Shown here: positions 12,202 to 62,747 of the stretch, piece by piece
Layout: every line of letters starts with the position of its first letter
Position numbering within the stretch: position 1 is the first letter of the stretch
Sequence record: MH992122.1
Reading direction: 5' to 3' (one strand)
DNA from: Escherichia phage OLB35
DNA length: 64,000 bases
Position numbers and translations under genes: made by a program
The notes under the pieces: model-generated
The model's database searches: none
The model's input: the letters and a program-made list of their open reading frames with translations, nothing else
What the model was told of the DNA's origin: nothing

Positions 12202-12810
12202 TCAGTAACCGACAATAGACAGATTCCAGATTGTATAACGTCCATCTTGAATAATAGAATCTACACGCAGTGTAGTCCCTATAGGGAGCATAAATTCGCA
12301 TTCGTCAGATATAAGTCTAGCATTAGACCGTCTTGTAGCTTCAGGGAAAGCTCCATTGAACTCACAAGATGGCGCAGCCAGAATCATGTTAAGCATATGT
12401 TCACGGAAGTTGAAAGCAAATGGTGCATCTTTGATGCAGAACATATTAAATGTTCCATAAAAATTATATGAAGCGAAGTTACGTGCTACACCGAACACTG
12501 GACTAAAGCTCATTACTCTATCAAATTTAATAATACTACCAACATCTTTATCGTCGAGTGTGGCCATAGTTTTCTTAGAGATTCCACGATACATTGTCTC
12601 AGGAACAGAAGACGTCCAATTTCTACGAACAATTGCACTTAAATCTTGTTGGATGCTATCAGGCTTGTTTTCCATACACTGCCATAGTACACTTTGTTCA
12701 ATGTCGCTGAATTGCTCATCGATTTTGTACTGAAGCATATCTTGATAATCTGGGCATTGAGCACGACGAACCATTTCTTCAATTTCACACTCGTTATACG
12801 GCATAAACAT
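12202..12810 (-). CDS. modA: ADP-ribosyltransferase, ModA-like
   Basis: 202-aa ORF with R-S-E ART motifs (..YRG.., ..SFS.., ..ECEF..); T4 synteny after srd position. Confidence 0.65.
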   Translation of the reverse strand: MFMPYNECEIEEMVRRAQCPDYQDMLQYKIDEQFSDIEQSVLWQCMENKPDSIQQDLSAIVRRNWTSSVPETMYRGISKKTMATLDDKDVGSIIKFDRVMSFSPVFGVARNFASYNFYGTFNMFCIKDAPFAFNFREHMLNMILAAPSCEFNGAFPEATRRSNARLISDECEFMLPIGTTLRVDSIIQDGRYTIWNLSIVGY

Positions 12811-12867
12811 TTAGGTTTCTCCTGTGGTTGATAAAGGTATAGTATCATCATCGGAAGAGTTTGTACA

Positions 12868-13449
12868 CTAAAAATTCAACATTTTTAAATGAATGATTTT
12901 GTATAACCGAGATAAAGGGTCATATTCTAAGTCTTCAATTTCTACAATCTCAAATCTAGAGATACCTGAGACCATGTATTCTTGTTCAGATTCAATCATA
13001 TCTAGGACGTCAACACGTTTTTCTTCCATAACATGCTTAGGGTTCTTTCCGGCGAGTACAATGTTAACCATGTTTTGGTAGTAATCGAAAATGAACGGAG
13101 CATTCCTGAGACTAAGAATAGTGTACGTCTGATATTCCCAACTCCCAGAGAACTGTCTGGCCGTACCAAAGTCTGTTGTAAACGATGTTACTCGTCCAGG
13201 AGACCAATGGCATCCAACAGAAAGAAGGGAAAGACGTTCTACTTCTTCTGGAGTTACACCACGGTAGAGTTCTACTGGTACTGTAGAAGTCATATGCTTA
13301 CGAACAAGACGGTCTAATTCATAGTGGAAATCTGGGTCTTCCTTAGAATCAGTGCAAGCCCAGAGAATGTTTTGTTCTTGGCGGGTGAATTTGCTATCAA
13401 TCAGATTTGTTAGGTATTCGCGTTCTTGAAGTTCAGATTGACATGTCAT
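12868..13449 (-). CDS. modB: ADP-ribosyltransferase, ModB-like
   Basis: 193-aa ORF with ..YRG.., ..SFTT.., ..EQEY.. motifs; paralog of neighbouring gene. Confidence 0.65.
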   Translation of the reverse strand: MTCQSELQEREYLTNLIDSKFTRQEQNILWACTDSKEDPDFHYELDRLVRKHMTSTVPVELYRGVTPEEVERLSLLSVGCHWSPGRVTSFTTDFGTARQFSGSWEYQTYTILSLRNAPFIFDYYQNMVNIVLAGKNPKHVMEEKRVDVLDMIESEQEYMVSGISRFEIVEIEDLEYDPLSRLYKIIHLKMLNF

Positions 13450-58206: not shown

Positions 58207-58509
58207 TTAGATAGATGTAGACTCTAATTTTATTTTCATGAACTCGGCAAATTGTTTGGCAGTTTTTATGCCTTGTTCATGACATTCAAATGCATCATCA
58301 CAGGGGCTATTTTTGTAATGCTTTGCCATATACTTATAGAATTTTTCAGAGTTCTCGACATTTTGAATTTCAAACAAAGTATATACGTTTTTAATCCCTG
58401 ATTCCATAAAGTTATCAAAGTATGGGTCAACATATGCAGTACCAACGATAGGAGTTGTTGCTGCAAAAAACCCAAGCATCGCCATGACAGCTATCGCTCT
58501 TAAGGCCAT
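58207..58509 (-). CDS. rI: lysis-inhibition protein RI (antiholin)
   Basis: 100 aa with signal-anchor; ...VDPYFDNFMESGIKNVYTLFE...KNSPCDDAFEC... matches T4 RI. Confidence 0.8.
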   Translation of the reverse strand: MALRAIAVMAMLGFFAATTPIVGTAYVDPYFDNFMESGIKNVYTLFEIQNVENSEKFYKYMAKHYKNSPCDDAFECHEQGIKTAKQFAEFMKIKLESTSI

Positions 58510-58521
58510 ATAGGCCTCCTG

Positions 58522-58734
58522 TTAATTTTGGCCAGTATTTATTTTTCGCCTTTGGACGGCCTTAACATCTGCGAGGTATTTTTCCAGCTTTCGCTTGCGT
58601 GTATAATCAGCTTTAGAACCAGTTTGACGGATATCCTCGTTTAAATGAGAAATAGAATGTCCTAATTCTCTTCGGATTTCGTCCAATTGGGTTACAGTAA
58701 GATTACGAAGTTGTCTTTCGTTTAATTGCTGCAT
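58522..58734 (-). CDS. hypothetical protein
   Basis: 70-aa ORF, ATG at 58732-58734 with AAGAGG RBS; late promoter upstream. Confidence 0.5.
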
Positions 58735-58758
58735 ATATACCTCTTGGTTAGATATTAG

Positions 58759-58766
58759 TATTTATA
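58759..58766 (-). promoter_or_regulatory. late promoter TATAAATA
   Basis: plus tatttata at 58759-58766, overlapping the tk stop codon, about 25 nt upstream of the 58734 ATG. Confidence 0.45.
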
Positions 58767-59343
58767 ACAACCCTGTCAAATCATTCCAATGCTTCCGGCA
58801 TAATGACACGTATCTATCGGTATCACCAATTTCAATTTGACTGCCATCTGTAATTGGAAGTCCGTCTTCCGTGACTCTAGCTACCATTGTGGCTTTTTTA
58901 CCGCAATGACAGACACCTTTAAGTTCAACAAGCTTATCGGCAATAGCCATTAATGCTTGAGAACCTTCAAATAGATTACCTTTAAAATCTGTTCGTAGTC
59001 CGTATGCCATTACCGGCACATTGTATACGTCAACAATACGACTAAGTTGATACACCTTTTCAGTAGTTAAGAACTGAGCTTCGTCAACAAATACACAGTG
59101 AATATCCTTTTGTGCTGCAGCCCATTTATAAAATTCAAAGATATCCATGTCTTTTGTAATTATATTGGCATCCTGACGAATACCAATACGGGAGACTATT
59201 TCACCTTTTGAATCGCGAGTATCAATAGCCGGTTTAAGAACTAATACACCCATGCCACGTTCTTTATAGTTATGTGCGGCAGTAAGTAATGAAGCAGACT
59301 TACCAGCGTTCATAGCGGCATAGGTAAAAATTAAACTAGCCAT
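58762..59343 (-). CDS. tk: thymidine kinase
   Basis: 193 aa; P-loop AAMNAGKSASLL and Zn-ribbon cysteines; matches T4 Tk. Confidence 0.92.
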   Translation of the reverse strand: MASLIFTYAAMNAGKSASLLTAAHNYKERGMGVLVLKPAIDTRDSKGEIVSRIGIRQDANIITKDMDIFEFYKWAAAQKDIHCVFVDEAQFLTTEKVYQLSRIVDVYNVPVMAYGLRTDFKGNLFEGSQALMAIADKLVELKGVCHCGKKATMVARVTEDGLPITDGSQIEIGDTDRYVSLCRKHWNDLTGLL

Positions 59344-59352
59344 AAGAGTCCC

Positions 59353-59535
59353 TTATAGTGAATTCACGTAGTCAATGAGTTCTTGTTCTTTCCTGTCAAA
59401 TGATTCCATCAATGCTTGATATTCTTCGTCTGTTAAAGGAGCATATTCATCGTACGCATTAGTGGCTGCTTGCTCATCCAATAGGTCATGGATAAGTTCG
59501 AACAGTTTAGTTTTCTCTTCTTTAGTTAATTTCAT
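59353..59535 (-). CDS. hypothetical small acidic protein
   Basis: 60-aa ORF. Confidence 0.4.
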   Translation of the reverse strand: MKLTKEEKTKLFELIHDLLDEQAATNAYDEYAPLTDEEYQALMESFDRKEQELIDYVNSL

Positions 59536-59753
59536 TTAGGTTCACCTTCTTTAATGAAATCCGGATAAGGATTAAATCCAGAATAAAATCCTTCACCTTT
59601 ATGATTGCTACAACCCTTGTTCGAGCAATAGCACCAATAATCAAAATCACAAGCCATTTCGTCATTGCATAGAGCAAATACTACAGGCCATTCACATTTT
59701 TCACATTTAGCACCTGTAAGAATTTTTGTTTGGCTCATAACAATGGTTCCCAA
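59532..59753 (-). CDS. Cys-rich small protein
   Basis: 73 aa with multiple Cys pairs. Confidence 0.45.
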   Translation of the reverse strand: MGTIVMSQTKILTGAKCEKCEWPVVFALCNDEMACDFDYWCYCSNKGCSNHKGEGFYSGFNPYPDFIKEGEPK

Positions 59754-60232
59754 TCAACAATCACAATTTCTAGTTTAGTGGAATACGTATCTAAAATCTC
59801 TTCGATGACATCCCAGTTTCCGCCACCGATACCTGCACCAATTCTTGGCATATAAATTACAGGCTTTGTTATCTTATTCTTTCCGAATTCATTTAATTCT
59901 ATTATACAATTCATTAAAGCAGGGTACTCAAAATTAGGTCCCGGCTCAAACTGTGTATAAAGATTAAAGCAATAAGCTTTATGGGTCTTAAAATATTTTT
60001 CATAAACCGAATAAGTCCCGAGTTTAGACTCGTCTCCGAATTCGGTTTGAAGTTTATCTGCTTCCAGAATTTTTGGATAAGCCTTTGCCAATTGACCTGC
60101 TACACCGGCACCCATTGTATGAAAACAATTGCACCCATGAGCAATATTATTACCTTTAGAAAACAGGGCGACAATATCGCCCTTGATATAGTTTTTAATC
60201 ACTTGCTGCAAGTCCTCTAGTATAAGAGTCAA
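59735..60232 (-). CDS. macro-domain protein (ADP-ribose binding/hydrolase-like)
   Basis: 165 aa; ...NIAHGCNCFHTMGAGVAGQLAKAYP... and ...GAGIGGGNW... resemble macrodomain motifs. Confidence 0.6.
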   Translation of the reverse strand: MTLILEDLQQVIKNYIKGDIVALFSKGNNIAHGCNCFHTMGAGVAGQLAKAYPKILEADKLQTEFGDESKLGTYSVYEKYFKTHKAYCFNLYTQFEPGPNFEYPALMNCIIELNEFGKNKITKPVIYMPRIGAGIGGGNWDVIEEILDTYSTKLEIVIVDWEPLL

Positions 60233-60542
60233 CTAGACGGTCCACCATAGAATTGCATGCTGCCTTATCTTTAGGTTCCGCCACCGAGCATTCTAATATT
60301 TGCCATTTTTTATGATATCGTTTAATTAAGGTAGACGCCTTGAACCTACTAGACGCCCCATCTTTTTCTCCGTCTTTATATGCGTATAACAATTTTTGTG
60401 AAAAATCTACTTTACACTCTTGACTTTTACCACAATAATCAGACGCCGTTCTGTTTGTATACTCCGTTACATCAGTATATGTAGTATTAGCAAGAGCGTT
60501 AAATGAAACCAAGCCAACTATTAAAGCCAACATTTTGGTCAT
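60195..60542 (-). CDS. secreted protein (signal peptide)
   Basis: 115 aa, N-terminal signal peptide, several Cys. Confidence 0.5.
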   Translation of the reverse strand: MTKMLALIVGLVSFNALANTTYTDVTEYTNRTASDYCGKSQECKVDFSQKLLYAYKDGEKDGASSRFKASTLIKRYHKKWQILECSVAEPKDKAACNSMVDRLVDSYTRGLAASD

Positions 60543-61081
60543 TCTTTTACTTCCAGTAGTTTATTTGATTTAAGGTAATTAGCCTTTTCTAGGACTTCAG
60601 AAGCATATTTACTGCCAGCACTTGTCTTCCATCCCGCATTATATGAGGATATAGCTTTTCTTATATCCCCGTTATGTATATTTAACCAATAAGAAAATTC
60701 GATATAAGCCCATCTTGTTGAATTAGACCGCTTAGATAGCATTTTCTTAATTTGGGCATCAGTCATATTATAACCAAGCTGGTTAATTCTTGCCCTCATT
60801 GTTGGTAGATAGTTTTGGAACATTCCATACGCATGGTGACCTTTCTTATCTTTAAGATTAATACCGGCAGATGATTCTTGCCATAGTATTGCGGCCATTA
60901 TGTATCCAAGTCCTTTCTTATGCATATTTTCATGCGTTTTAAATTTTCCGTCCTTAGAAAACTGTTCCCCAAACTGATAAGCATAATTCAAGTTATCGAG
61001 TTGGACATTACTAAAAGTATGCTCGGAGCTATGTGCTGATAACGAAAGAGCAAATAGACCAGCGAGTAGTGCTTTTCTCAT
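60539..61081 (-). CDS. periplasmic lytic transglycosylase-like protein
   Basis: 180 aa; signal peptide; ...AAILWQESSAG... SLT-type catalytic Glu motif. Confidence 0.55.
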   Translation of the reverse strand: MRKALLAGLFALSLSAHSSEHTFSNVQLDNLNYAYQFGEQFSKDGKFKTHENMHKKGLGYIMAAILWQESSAGINLKDKKGHHAYGMFQNYLPTMRARINQLGYNMTDAQIKKMLSKRSNSTRWAYIEFSYWLNIHNGDIRKAISSYNAGWKTSAGSKYASEVLEKANYLKSNKLLEVKE

Positions 61082-61089
61082 GTTTACCT

Positions 61090-61548
61090 CTAGATTTTAA
61101 TCACTGCTTTAGAAGCTTTTCCTGGTAGTCGTTTACTGTTAATAATAGCCATTCTACATTGAAGAGTCTTCATTTTGAATGCCGGATTTTCGCGACAAAC
61201 TGTAAGTCCTAACCAAAGATTTCCATCAGTTATTTCTAAACGGCCTGGGCGATATTCGACACCTTCGACAAAATCTTCATCAACATCTGGACGTGCCGGC
61301 ATTGATAAAAATTCTGCAACTTCTTTAACATGATTTTTTACTTTACGAAATAATTCAAAAACGTAATTCTCATCTATTTCTCTCTGGATGGCACGATCTA
61401 AGAGATGTTGAGAATACTTGATATGAAAGCCTGGTAGTCCAAGAGACTTTGCAGCATCTTTTATACCGGCATTGATTTGACGAAACTCCGTTTCAAAGAT
61501 TCGACGGAGTTTATTGCGACGGATAAAAACTTCCGAATTGATAGTCAT
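61090..61548 (-). CDS. regB: RegB site-specific endoribonuclease
   Basis: ORF trimmed to ATG at 61546-61548 (MTINSEVFIRRNKLRR...), matches T4 RegB. Confidence 0.88.
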   Translation of the reverse strand: MTINSEVFIRRNKLRRIFETEFRQINAGIKDAAKSLGLPGFHIKYSQHLLDRAIQREIDENYVFELFRKVKNHVKEVAEFLSMPARPDVDEDFVEGVEYRPGRLEITDGNLWLGLTVCRENPAFKMKTLQCRMAIINSKRLPGKASKAVIKI

Positions 61549-61556
61549 TTTTATTT

Positions 61557-61605
61557 CTCCTCTAGTTGACAGGTCTATAGTAACACAACTAGAGGAGAAG
61601 TAAAC
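61557..61605 (-). promoter_or_regulatory. early promoter within RBS-sequestering hairpin upstream of regB
   Basis: -35 GTTTAC (61600-61605), 17-bp spacer, -10 TACTAT (61577-61582); inverted repeat ctcctctagttg (61557-61568)/caactagaggag (61586-61597) contains the SD. Confidence 0.5.
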
Positions 61606-61628
61606 CACTTTTTGATAGGAATTAACTT

Positions 61629-61905
61629 TTAAACTGCTTTAGATACTTCGTCACGAACCTGGTGGAAGTTCTTGAGCTGTTCAAGGCGTTGTTCGTAATA
61701 CGCAATCTCATCTTCTTCAAGACAATCGTCAGCGTCTTCTTTCAGATATGCCTTGTACTCATTAAAGAGGGCCCATAGGCGGTTCTCAAAGTCATCAAGG
61801 CTTTGAATTTTCTTGTGCTTAGGAACAAGGCTAAAAGGATTGCTTTCAGTTATGCTTGTGACCTTTTCTTATGAGTTCCAAATACCCAGTAATAGTAGAA
61901 GCCAT
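61629..61905 (-). CDS. hypothetical protein, frame-broken at a homopolymer (absent from the ORF track)
   Basis: ATG 61903-61905 overlaps upstream stop (TAATG); after about 14 codons a T4 run (61864-61867) shifts the frame; the other frame reads ...[57 protein letters not shown] to TAA at 61629-61631. Confidence 0.35.
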
Positions 61906-62171
61906 TAGTATTTTTCCTCAGGTCGAAATACTGCACGACACGCCCACATGCTGGCTTCTTTTAGATGTTGCTTAGCGTACTTAAGAGCCTGCACTGCATC
62001 CATATCTTCTTTGGTTTGCTGCTCTGTTTCATTTTCTTTCAAGATATATGCTTCTTCAATAAGAGCATCAAACAGCAATCCAAGACGGACTTCTGCATCT
62101 TTAATAGCGTTCACTTTACCGATTTTATCATCGGTATGCGGCTTGTAGCCTTTGATGTCTTCAATCGACAT
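61905..62171 (-). CDS. hypothetical protein
   Basis: ORF 61905-62345 trimmed to ATG at 62169-62171 because the listed N-terminus overlaps the upstream gene in another frame. Confidence 0.4.
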   Translation of the reverse strand: MSIEDIKGYKPHTDDKIGKVNAIKDAEVRLGLLFDALIEEAYILKENETEQQTKEDMDAVQALKYAKQHLKEASMWACRAVFRPEEKY

Positions 62172-62385
62172 AAGGAATTTCCTCATCGGTGGCAAGGTCA
62201 TATTCGACCAATTGGATAGGCTCGTTAATACCATATCCACGTACAGTGATATCGGTTGTCGGATATTTTCCAGTAATATCACCCATTCTAAATGATTCAG
62301 TGAATGATTGCTCGCCTGAATTACTAAACCATTCTGCGAAAGCATTTAGCACATCTTTAGACCCTTCTATAATCAATTTAGCCAT
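62161..62385 (-). CDS. hypothetical protein
   Basis: 74-aa ORF, ATG overlaps the upstream stop. Confidence 0.45.
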   Translation of the reverse strand: MAKLIIEGSKDVLNAFAEWFSNSGEQSFTESFRMGDITGKYPTTDITVRGYGINEPIQLVEYDLATDEEIPYVD

Positions 62386-62747
62386 TATAGACTCTCAGTA
62401 AAGGTACGAGCGATAACGTCGCGCTGCTGTTCCGGAGTCAGAGAGTTAAAGCGAACTGCATAACCGGATACACGGATGGTCAGCTGCGGATATTTTTCCG
62501 GATGCTTAACTGCATCTTCCAGAGTTTCACGTCGCAGAACATTAACGTTCAGGTGTTGTCCACCTTCAATTTTAACTTTAGGTTGATGTTCAATTTCAAT
62601 TTCACGGGCATTCAAACCGTAGAAAATTTCCGGGTCTACAATAGCGTCTTCTTTAAAAGTCTTAGAGGCAATAATCCGGGCTTGAGTACCGTCTTCAAAA
62701 TAAATAGTGCCTTTATGTGCACCTTCAAGAATTTGATATGCTTTCAT
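62385..62747 (-). CDS. autonomous glycyl-radical cofactor (GrcA/YfiD-like, T4 Y06I-type)
   Basis: 120 aa; C-terminal ...[60 protein letters not shown] carries the RVSGY glycyl-radical motif and is essentially identical to E. coli GrcA. Confidence 0.85.

What the first reader, a model, noticed from the sequence alone, without database searches (positions are those of the whole stretch)
59735..60232. Macro-domain protein in a genome that also encodes two ADP-ribosyltransferases
A 165-aa macrodomain-like protein downstream of tk coexists with ModA/ModB-like ADP-ribosyltransferases (12202-13449). It could reverse or read phage- or host-driven ADP-ribosylation, including DarT-type DNA ADP-ribosylation defences.
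Basis: inference. Interest (0 to 1): 0.45.

Follow-up and report, generated by a model that had tools for sequence, protein, structure and literature searches.

The report
Phage macrodomain that counters DarT2 defence
This is the RB69-like phage's copy of the T4 gene tk.4 (adfM), a small macrodomain enzyme recently shown in T4 to protect the phage from the bacterial DarTG2 system that ADP-ribosylates DNA; it is a real gene, but an already described one.

Summary
The ORF is real and is a macrodomain. The gene is probably 155 aa (GTG at 60202 to stop at 59735), not the 165-aa mechanical ORF. It is the orthologue of T4 tk.4: 83% identical over the full length, with the same regB-vs.1-vs-tk.4-tk.3-tk.2-tk order.

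A 2025 preprint (HIDEN-SEQ) found tk.4 to be the only T4 gene needed on a DarTG2 host. It renamed the gene adfM.

The proposed link to ModA/ModB is not supported. Both ADP-ribosyltransferase genes are present, but Tk.4-like macrodomains occur in far more phage groups than ModA-like genes do.

What this work adds: the Tk.4 family carries an invariant Gln where DarG and TARG1 have the catalytic Lys. It also keeps the His/Asn/Gln/Gly set shown by mutagenesis to matter in Streptomyces SCO6735, a lysine-less enzyme that cleaves thymidine-linked ADP-ribose. PhiKZ 'AdfM' (gp104) is a different, Lys-type lineage. Hydrolysis by the Tk.4 type has not yet been shown biochemically.

Verdict: already known, low to moderate interest.

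The parts
59735..60202 (-). tk.4 / adfM orthologue: stand-alone macrodomain protein, 155 aa, GTG start, TGA stop
60203..60232 (-). Upstream extension of the mechanical ORF (TTG start); probably not translated as part of this protein. It lies inside the vs coding region.
   Evidence: T4 has an in-frame stop at this place. Annotated starts in relatives are at the GTG.
60128..60139 (-). Codons for H22-G23-C24-N25 (HGCN motif). N25 corresponds to DarG N22, PhiKZ gp104 N23 and SCO6735 N27; H22 corresponds to SCO6735 H24.
   Evidence: Alignments. N25 is kept in 260 of 261 and H22 in 252 of 261 family members. Mutant data for SCO6735 N27S and PhiKZ N23A come from PMC9411070 and PMC13309987.
59951..59953 (-). 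Codon for Q84 (NLYTQ motif), at the position of the catalytic Lys of DarG (K80) and TARG1 (K84) and of Gln85 of SCO6735
   Evidence: hhalign to the DarG type and to BT1257. 8-sequence alignment A3. SCO6735 numbering. Q is kept in 261 of 261 family members and in 80 of 80 cellular loci.
59819..59848 (-). Codons for P119-R-I-G122-A-G124-I-G-G-G128, the glycine-rich phosphate-binding loop. G124 corresponds to SCO6735 G128.
   Evidence: Alignments. P119, G122 and G124 are invariant or nearly so. The SCO6735 G128E mutant has reduced activity (PMC9411070).
60195..60542 (-). vs (valyl-tRNA synthetase modifier), the gene just upstream. Its stop overlaps the tk.4 start (GTGATTAA).
   Evidence: PHROG 1256; sequence read; synteny with T4 and RB69.
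59532..59738 (-). tk.3 (small zinc-binding protein), the gene just downstream. Its ATG overlaps the tk.4 stop (ATGA).
   Evidence: Pfam PF23895 E 7.7e-29; sequence read; annotation of WFbE185.
12202..12810 (-). modA-like ADP-ribosyltransferase.
   Evidence: PHROG 832 E 1.2e-38; 97.5% identity to RB69 modA; R, S-x-S and E-x-E motifs visible in the sequence.
12868..13449 (-). Second modA/modB-like ADP-ribosyltransferase (context only)
   Evidence: PHROG 832 E 2.4e-37; R, S-x-T and E-x-E motifs visible in the sequence.

Best explanation
The gene is the Mosigvirus (RB69-like) orthologue of T4 tk.4, recently renamed adfM (anti-DarT factor, macrodomain). It encodes a 155-aa single-domain macrodomain of the ALC1/TARG1-like class. 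It sits in a block of tightly packed same-strand genes (regB-vs.1-vs-tk.4-tk.3-tk.2-tk), and its start and stop overlap the neighbouring genes.

Proposed mechanism. When a host DarT2 toxin ADP-ribosylates thymidines (TNTC motifs) in the phage's single-stranded DNA, this protein binds the ADP-ribose and hydrolyses the ribose-thymine N-glycosidic bond. That restores replicable DNA, so the protein acts as an 'orphan antitoxin' without the DarT-binding domain of DarG.

Its active site is not that of DarG. It has an invariant Gln (Q84) where DarG and TARG1 have the catalytic Lys, together with H22, N25 and G124. This is the residue set of Streptomyces SCO6735. That enzyme cleaves thymidine-linked ADP-ribose by a proposed water-mediated mechanism in which the Gln positions the distal ribose.

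What is shown and what is inferred:
- Shown here: orthology, fold and residue equivalences.
- Shown in the literature for the T4 orthologue: the genetic requirement on DarTG2.
- Inferred: the same role in this phage, and hydrolysis as the mode of action.
For: Orthology and synteny: 83% identity with no gaps to T4 Tk.4. Same gene order as T4 and RB69. About 97% nucleotide identity to many Mosigvirus genomes, where the gene is annotated 'macro domain protein' or 'phosphatase'.

Relation to DarG: hhalign probability 98.6%, E 1e-15. The PADLOC DarG and NCBIfam DarG models hit the macro part only.

Active site: Q84 aligns with DarG K80, TARG1 K84 and SCO6735 Q85. N25 aligns with N22/N27, H22 with H24, and G124 with G128. 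Q84 is kept in 261 of 261 and N25 in 260 of 261 family members.

Literature:
- T4 tk.4 was the only significant HIDEN-SEQ hit on DarTG2, and the knockout was sensitised.
- T4 lacking adfA and adfN is still DarTG2-resistant.
- SCO6735 cleaves DarT-made dT-ADPr. Its Q85A mutant is dead and its N27S mutant nearly dead.
- Macrodomain gp104 of PhiKZ removes DarT2 ADP-ribose from DNA in vitro.
Against: - No biochemical assay exists for T4 Tk.4 or for this protein. The preprint only says that enzymatic removal 'seems likely'.
- The protein lacks the catalytic Lys of DarG and TARG1. It also lacks the 5-6-residue longer 'mobile loop' that the SCO6735 paper links to high activity on DNA.
- Catalytically dead SCO6735 also inhibits DarT by interaction, so protection need not be purely hydrolytic.
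- The anti-DarTG2 phenotype was measured in T4, not in a Mosigvirus.
- The family is very large (18,193 cluster representatives at E<=1e-3). It also occurs in bacterial chromosomes with no DarT nearby, so DarT2 may not be its only or original target.
Confidence: 0.75

Rival explanations
1. The protein protects against DarT2 mainly by binding and inhibiting the toxin, or by shielding modified DNA, rather than by hydrolysing the modification.
For: Catalytically inactive SCO6735 (Q85A), DarG (K80A) and TARG1 (K84A) all inhibit DarT activity in vitro. SCO6735 is the strongest of the three (PMC9411070). The T4 evidence is genetic only.
Against: The protein has no counterpart of the C-terminal DarT-binding domain of DarG: it is 155 aa against model lengths of 329 and 338. 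Invariant conservation of the catalytic-pocket residues N25, Q84 and G124 in 260-261 of 261 relatives fits an enzyme. These relatives include bacterial chromosomal copies with no DarT nearby. That does not fit an inhibitor that co-evolves with one toxin.
Confidence: 0.1
2. One reading: the macrodomain reads or reverses ADP-ribosylation made by the phage's own Alt/ModA/ModB enzymes on host proteins such as RNA polymerase.
For: ModA/ModB-like genes are present in the same genome. Macrodomains are general ADP-ribose readers and erasers. An arginine-specific macrodomain (Legionella MavL) appears in the reference list of PMC13036486, so the chemistry is not impossible.
Against: Tk.4-like macrodomains occur in 2,799 phage records, including Pseudomonas (183), Vibrio (134), Acinetobacter (94) and Aeromonas (86) phages. 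ModA-like genes occur in 1,080 records, and every genus or row the output lists is an enteric-host phage. The closest structures are thymine/uracil- or ester-specific enzymes, or a phosphatase. In T4 the gene was reported only as a hit on the DarTG2 host.
Confidence: 0.04
3. It is a Poa1p-like ADP-ribose-1''-phosphate phosphatase or other small-molecule ADP-ribose-derivative hydrolase, as the database label 'phosphatase' implies. On this view it processes NAD-derived metabolites rather than modified DNA.
Against: Poa1p has Ser, not the invariant Gln, at position 84, and matches poorly over the C-terminal half. The label is an old homology transfer, not an assay. The T4 genetic phenotype is specific to DarTG2. 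A phosphatase would not explain that.
Confidence: 0.05
4. Its relevant substrate includes RNA: it removes ADP-ribose from uracil (or other bases) in RNA, in addition to or instead of DNA thymine.
For: TARG1, DarG and the Gln-type SCO6735 all hydrolyse uracil-linked ADP-ribose on ssRNA, and SCO6735 does so efficiently (PMC13036486).
Against: No bacterial anti-phage toxin that makes U-ADPr came up in the papers read here. CmdTAC, an mRNA ADP-ribosyltransferase system described as irreversible adenine modification, gives robust defence against T-even phages (abstract). These phages carry tk.4, so tk.4 does not counter it.
Confidence: 0.06

Closest known systems
T4 Tk.4 = AdfM (anti-DarT factor macrodomain), HIDEN-SEQ preprint, bioRxiv 10.1101/2025.11.20.689424
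   Same: Orthologue: 83% identical over all 155 residues, with the same neighbours and gene order and the same motifs (HGCNCFHTMG, NLYTQ, PRIGAGIG).
   Different: 26 amino-acid substitutions. GTG instead of ATG start, and an 8-nt rather than 4-nt overlap with vs. The anti-DarTG2 phenotype was measured only for T4.
Streptomyces coelicolor SCO6735 (PDB 5E3B) and Bacteroides BT1257 (2FG1/2AFC): lysine-less ALC1-like macrodomains. SCO6735 cleaves thymidine-linked ADP-ribose.
   Different: Only 23-32% identity. The Tk.4 family lacks the 5-6-residue insertion ('mobile loop' with Lys89/Lys94) that defines the SCO6735/BT1257 subclass. It has its own invariant residues D49, N80 and Y82. It is phage-borne.
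DarG, the antitoxin of DarTG2 (T. aquaticus 5M31, M. tuberculosis 5M3I)
   Different: Gln instead of the catalytic Lys80. No C-terminal DarT-binding domain: NCBIfam DarG scores 30 bits against a cut-off of 250. No adjacent darT gene.
PhiKZ gp104 'AdfM' (Cell Rep 2026, PMC13309987)
   Same: A phage-encoded stand-alone macrodomain that counters DarTG2. Activity on DNA was shown in vitro for gp104. The conserved Asn is N23 in gp104 and N25 here.
   Different: A different lineage: 21% identity, BLASTP E 6e-4. gp104 is DarG-like (E 9e-25 to M. tuberculosis DarG) and keeps the catalytic Lys in the FPTK motif. It is imported into the phage nucleus. The same name is in use for two non-orthologous proteins.
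Human TARG1 (C6orf130/OARD1)
   Different: TARG1 uses a Lys84/Asp125 dyad. Here those positions are Gln84 and Gly126.

Membership tests
Macro domain (Pfam PF01661) | Score above the Pfam gathering threshold, and a macro alpha/beta/alpha fold | tested here: met
T4 Tk.4 / AdfM orthologous group | Full-length high identity to T4 Tk.4 and a conserved position between vs and tk.3 | tested here: met
   83% identity over 155/155 aa with no gaps. regB-vs.1-vs-tk.4-tk.3-tk.2-tk order as in T4.
T4 Tk.4 / AdfM orthologous group | Loss of the gene sensitises the phage to DarTG2 | not testable with these tools
   Reported for T4 only. A deletion of 59735-60202 in this phage is needed.
ALC1/TARG1-like class of macrodomains | Closest structural neighbours are TARG1, DarG, SCO6735/BT1257, ALC1 and Poa1p rather than MacroD-, PARG- or macroH2A-type domains | tested here: met
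DarG antitoxin (DarTG2) | Catalytic lysine (K80) in the FPTK motif | tested here: not met
   Gln84 occupies that column. Gln is kept in 261 of 261 family members.
DarG antitoxin (DarTG2) | Second, C-terminal DarT-interacting domain; full-length match to the DarG model | tested here: not met
   The protein is 155 aa. NCBIfam NF048014 scores 30.4 bits against a cut-off of 250 and matches profile positions 4-146 of 338. PADLOC DarG matches positions 4-145 of 329.
DarG antitoxin (DarTG2) | Encoded next to a darT toxin gene | tested here: not met
   The neighbours are vs and tk.3. There is no DarT2-like sequence in the window (best tblastn E 0.56).
SCO6735/BT1257 subclass (lysine-less dT-ADPr hydrolases) | Gln at the Lys position, with conserved His24, Asn27 and Gly128 equivalents | tested here: met
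   Q84, H22, N25 and G124 align to Q85, H24, N27 and G128.
SCO6735/BT1257 subclass (lysine-less dT-ADPr hydrolases) | 'Mobile loop' about 5 residues longer than in DarG and TARG1 | tested here: not met
   hhalign and MAFFT both place a 5-6-residue gap in Tk.4 opposite the SCO6735/BT1257 loop. 207 of 261 family members have the short 7-residue spacing.
SCO6735/BT1257 subclass (lysine-less dT-ADPr hydrolases) | Hydrolysis of thymidine-linked ADP-ribose on ssDNA | not testable with these tools
   Requires an enzyme assay on a DarT-modified oligonucleotide.
Poa1p-like ADP-ribose-1''-phosphate phosphatase (source of the 'phosphatase' label) | Sequence and structure similarity across the whole domain, including the active-site loop | tested here: inconclusive

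The most novel reading that the evidence does not exclude
The Tk.4-type AdfM is not a captured DarG antitoxin. It is a lysine-less, Gln-type hydrolase lineage that is also common as an orphan gene in bacterial chromosomes, and it works by the water-mediated mechanism proposed for SCO6735, but without that enzyme's extended DNA-binding loop.

If so, phages recruited ALC1-like macrodomains against DarT2 at least twice independently, from different sources and with different catalytic chemistry: the Gln-type Tk.4 in T4-like and many other phages, and the Lys-type gp104 in PhiKZ-like phages. The family-specific invariant residues D49, N80 and Y82 would then supply the DNA or thymine recognition that the long loop provides in SCO6735. 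The enzyme might also act on uracil-linked ADP-ribose in RNA.
Probability: 0.45. Interest if true: 0.4.

Novelty: already known. Interest (0 to 1): 0.25.

Why it matters
DarTG systems block phage replication by ADP-ribosylating viral DNA, and phage counter-measures decide host range. This gene is very likely one of them, so its presence predicts that RB69-like phages resist DarTG2-carrying E. coli. That is useful when choosing therapeutic phages.

Because the T4 orthologue has already been identified genetically, the finding adds no new kind of system.

The residual scientific value is mechanistic. The T4-type enzyme has Gln where DarG has its essential Lys, so it offers a small, well-behaved model for lysine-independent removal of ADP-ribose from DNA bases. 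It also shows that the name AdfM now covers two unrelated lineages.

Tried and rejected
- Looked for a DarT toxin near bacterial homologues, to test a 'captured antitoxin' origin. tblastn with P. aeruginosa DarT2 found nothing significant in 80 cellular loci (best E 2.4). phmmer against greedy-selected ORFs of those loci also found nothing. Recurrent neighbours looked like housekeeping genes. Only one DarT2 query was used, so distant DarT relatives could have been missed.
- Looked for a DarT gene or a second macrodomain in the window. There was none.
- Promoter and terminator consensus scan of 58400-62400. There were fewer promoter-like sites than in shuffles, so nothing usable came out. T4 middle and early promoter types are not covered by that tool.
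- Tried to read LeRoux et al. 2022 (PMC9250638) for RB69 behaviour on DarTG2. The paper is not held.
- Tried to find the Poa1p structure paper for its catalytic residues. It is not in the library.
- Checked whether the CmdTAC paper or the Thoeris type II preprint mention a phage macrodomain counter-defence. They do not.
- Considered the 165-aa TTG start and rejected it.
- The first HMMER pairwise alignment to BT1257 put Tyr on Tyr and misplaced the Gln. Profile alignment and MAFFT corrected this.

Full report
**What is there.** The window is a T4-like genome of the RB69 group (Mosigvirus). The 1.3 kb around the ORF is about 97% identical to many Escherichia and Shigella phages of that genus. 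The local gene order is regB, vs.1, vs, this ORF, tk.3, tk.2, tk, all on the minus strand, as in T4 and RB69.

The protein is 83% identical, without gaps, to T4 Tk.4, which is 155 aa. T4 starts at an ATG that has an in-frame stop directly upstream. The window and RB69 have GTG at the same codon, and annotated relatives start there. So the gene is most likely 59735-60202, 155 aa. The first ten codons of the mechanical ORF are the other-frame reading of the end of vs.

The GTG overlaps the vs stop (GTGATTAA). The TGA stop overlaps the ATG of tk.3 (ATGA). This suggests translational coupling within a packed operon-like block. Against T4, 48 codons differ synonymously and 26 non-synonymously.

**Is it a macrodomain?** Yes.
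- Pfam Macro scores above its gathering threshold (26.7 against 22 bits).
- PHROG 335 matches at E 1.4e-66.
- An AlphaFold2 model built on 108 homologues has mean pLDDT 96 and pTM 0.91.

This places the protein in the ALC1/TARG1-like class.

**What is already known about it.** The literature tools show that the T4 orthologue has been assigned a function.
- The HIDEN-SEQ preprint (bioRxiv 10.1101/2025.11.20.689424, November 2025) screened a T4 transposon library on a DarTG2 host and found one significant hit, tk.4. A clean knockout was sensitised. The authors renamed the gene adfM and stated that enzymatic removal of ADP-ribose from DNA 'seems likely', by analogy with DarG. No enzyme assay is reported there.
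- Separately, a 2026 Cell Reports paper used the same name, AdfM, for PhiKZ gp104. That macrodomain removes DarT2-made ADP-ribose from an oligonucleotide in vitro, and an N23A mutant is impaired (PMC13309987).

**What kind of active site it has.** I compared the family with DarG-type proteins.
- A profile of 108 Tk.4-family sequences aligns to a DarG-type alignment (T. aquaticus DarG, M. tuberculosis DarG, T. africanus DarTG, PhiKZ gp104) with 98.6% probability. This alignment puts Tk.4 Q84 on the catalytic Lys of the FPTK motif and N25 on the conserved Asn.
- The same profile aligns to BT1257 with 98.7% probability. It puts NLYTQ on NMIGQ and opens a six-residue gap after it.
- BT1257 aligns with SCO6735 (PDB 5E3B) at E 1e-50. 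Subtracting the 20-residue tag reproduces the published numbering (His24, Val25, Asn27, Gln85, Gly87, Gly128).
- An eight-sequence MAFFT alignment shows the whole column directly: Q in this protein, T4 Tk.4, SCO6735 and BT1257; K in both DarGs, PhiKZ gp104 and TARG1.

The SCO6735 paper (PMC9411070) reports several points.
- SCO6735 efficiently cleaves DarT-made thymidine-linked ADP-ribose.
- Q85A and Q85E are dead, N27S is almost dead, and G128E is reduced.
- Catalysis is proposed to run through an activated water, with Gln85 positioning the distal ribose.
- The SCO6735/BT1257 subclass is marked by a 'mobile loop' five residues longer than in DarG and TARG1.

The Tk.4 family therefore has the SCO6735-type residue set (H22, N25, Q84, G124) but the short DarG/TARG1-type loop. 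Within 261 family sequences, Q84, D49 and Y82 are invariant, N25 and N80 are kept in 260 of 261, and H22 in 252 of 261. All 80 bacterial chromosomal homologues examined also keep Q84.

PhiKZ gp104 is only 21% identical to this protein (E 6e-4). It is a close DarG relative that retains the Lys. So the two 'AdfM' proteins are different lineages.

**Distribution and context.** The family is large: 18,193 representatives of 50%-identity clusters at E<=1e-3, and 1,197 at E<=1e-30. Among phage records, tblastn finds it in 2,799, including phages of Escherichia, Klebsiella, Salmonella, Pseudomonas, Vibrio, Acinetobacter and Aeromonas with very different genome sizes.

In bacterial genomes, 222 loci were confirmed; the 80 kept are from Rhodobacterales, Verrucomicrobia, Planctomycetes, Desulfobacteraceae and others. 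None of the 80 has a DarT2-like gene within 5 kb. Recurrent neighbours look like ordinary chromosomal genes conserved within lineages. So the cellular relatives are orphan macrodomains like SCO6735, not antitoxins of recognisable DarTG operons. This search used only one DarT2 query.

**The ModA/ModB link.** Both ORFs at 12202-13449 are genuine ModA/ModB-type ADP-ribosyltransferases. ModA-like genes are found in 1,080 phage records. The genera and rows the output lists are all enteric-host phages, and nearly all listed rows are T4-sized genomes. So the macrodomain is far more widely distributed than these transferases.

Alt, ModA and ModB modify arginine (general knowledge). The characterised members of this macrodomain class act on ester-linked or thymine/uracil-linked ADP-ribose, or on ADP-ribose-1''-phosphate. 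In T4 the gene was reported only as a hit on the DarTG2 host. I therefore regard the co-occurrence as incidental. An arginine-specific macrodomain is known elsewhere (MavL, cited), so the idea is not chemically excluded.

**Most likely mechanism.**
- Shown here: orthology to T4 tk.4/adfM, an ALC1/TARG1-like macro fold, and an SCO6735-type catalytic residue set.
- Shown by others for relatives: tk.4 is required for T4 growth on DarTG2. SCO6735 (Gln-type) and gp104 (Lys-type) hydrolyse DarT-made dT-ADPr.
- Inferred: this protein hydrolyses the ribose-thymine bond on the phage's single-stranded DNA after DarT2 attack and so restores replication, with Q84 and N25 positioning the distal ribose and a water acting as nucleophile. 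I put this at about 0.75 overall.

The rivals are: toxin inhibition by binding, which is supported by the behaviour of dead SCO6735; a Poa1p-like phosphatase role, which is the origin of the 'phosphatase' label; reversal of the phage's own ADP-ribosylation; and RNA uracil de-ADP-ribosylation. The protein is not a DarG family member. It lacks the Lys, the second domain and a neighbouring toxin.

**Verdict.** The ModA/ModB framing is not supported. The feature is already known, both annotated and, for T4, functionally assigned. Interest is therefore low to moderate. The remaining open point is biochemical: how a lysine-less, short-loop macrodomain removes ADP-ribose from thymine.

Noticed in passing
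window 59735-60202; literature: The name AdfM is in use for two non-orthologous phage macrodomains. T4 Tk.4 is Gln-type (HIDEN-SEQ preprint). PhiKZ gp104 is Lys-type and DarG-like (Cell Rep 2026). They share 21% identity.
   Followed up: yes
window 60165-60183 (minus strand): A terminator-like hairpin (8 pairs, 5 G-C) followed by a T-rich run lies about 20 nt inside the tk.4 coding region, just after the GTG start. It could be chance, or it could affect translation initiation or coupling with vs.
   Followed up: no
window 59532-59738 (minus strand): tk.3, a small zinc-binding protein (Pfam PF23895, E 7.7e-29), is present here and in T4 but absent from RB69, where tk.4 directly abuts tk.2. This is a gene-content difference within the RB69 group.
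   Followed up: partly
window 60539-61081 (minus strand): vs.1 (180 aa) has a hydrophobic N-terminus. It has a weak match to the SLT lytic transglycosylase domain, below the Pfam threshold (E 7.8e-4, 19.4 against 21.3 bits). PHROG 600 gives its function as unknown.
   Followed up: no
window 60195-60542 (minus strand): The neighbouring gene vs (valyl-tRNA synthetase modifier) was the most strongly depleted T4 gene in minimal medium in the same HIDEN-SEQ preprint. Two adjacent small genes therefore both have newly assigned conditional phenotypes.
   Followed up: no
L025 5469-6668 and seven other loci of Rhodobacterales and related bacteria: In 8 bacterial loci the chromosomal Tk.4-like macrodomain gene lies close to (median 37 bp; 2 bp in L025) a roughly 400-aa ORF that looks by eye like an endonuclease/exonuclease/phosphatase-family protein. 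This is a possible conserved gene pair. It was not checked against Pfam.
   Followed up: partly
window 59735-60202, family-wide: D49, N80 and Y82 are invariant or almost invariant in 261 Tk.4-family proteins. D49 and Y82 are not conserved in DarG, TARG1 or SCO6735, whereas N80 is shared with DarG and SCO6735/BT1257. Their role is unknown; they may recognise DNA or thymine.
   Followed up: partly
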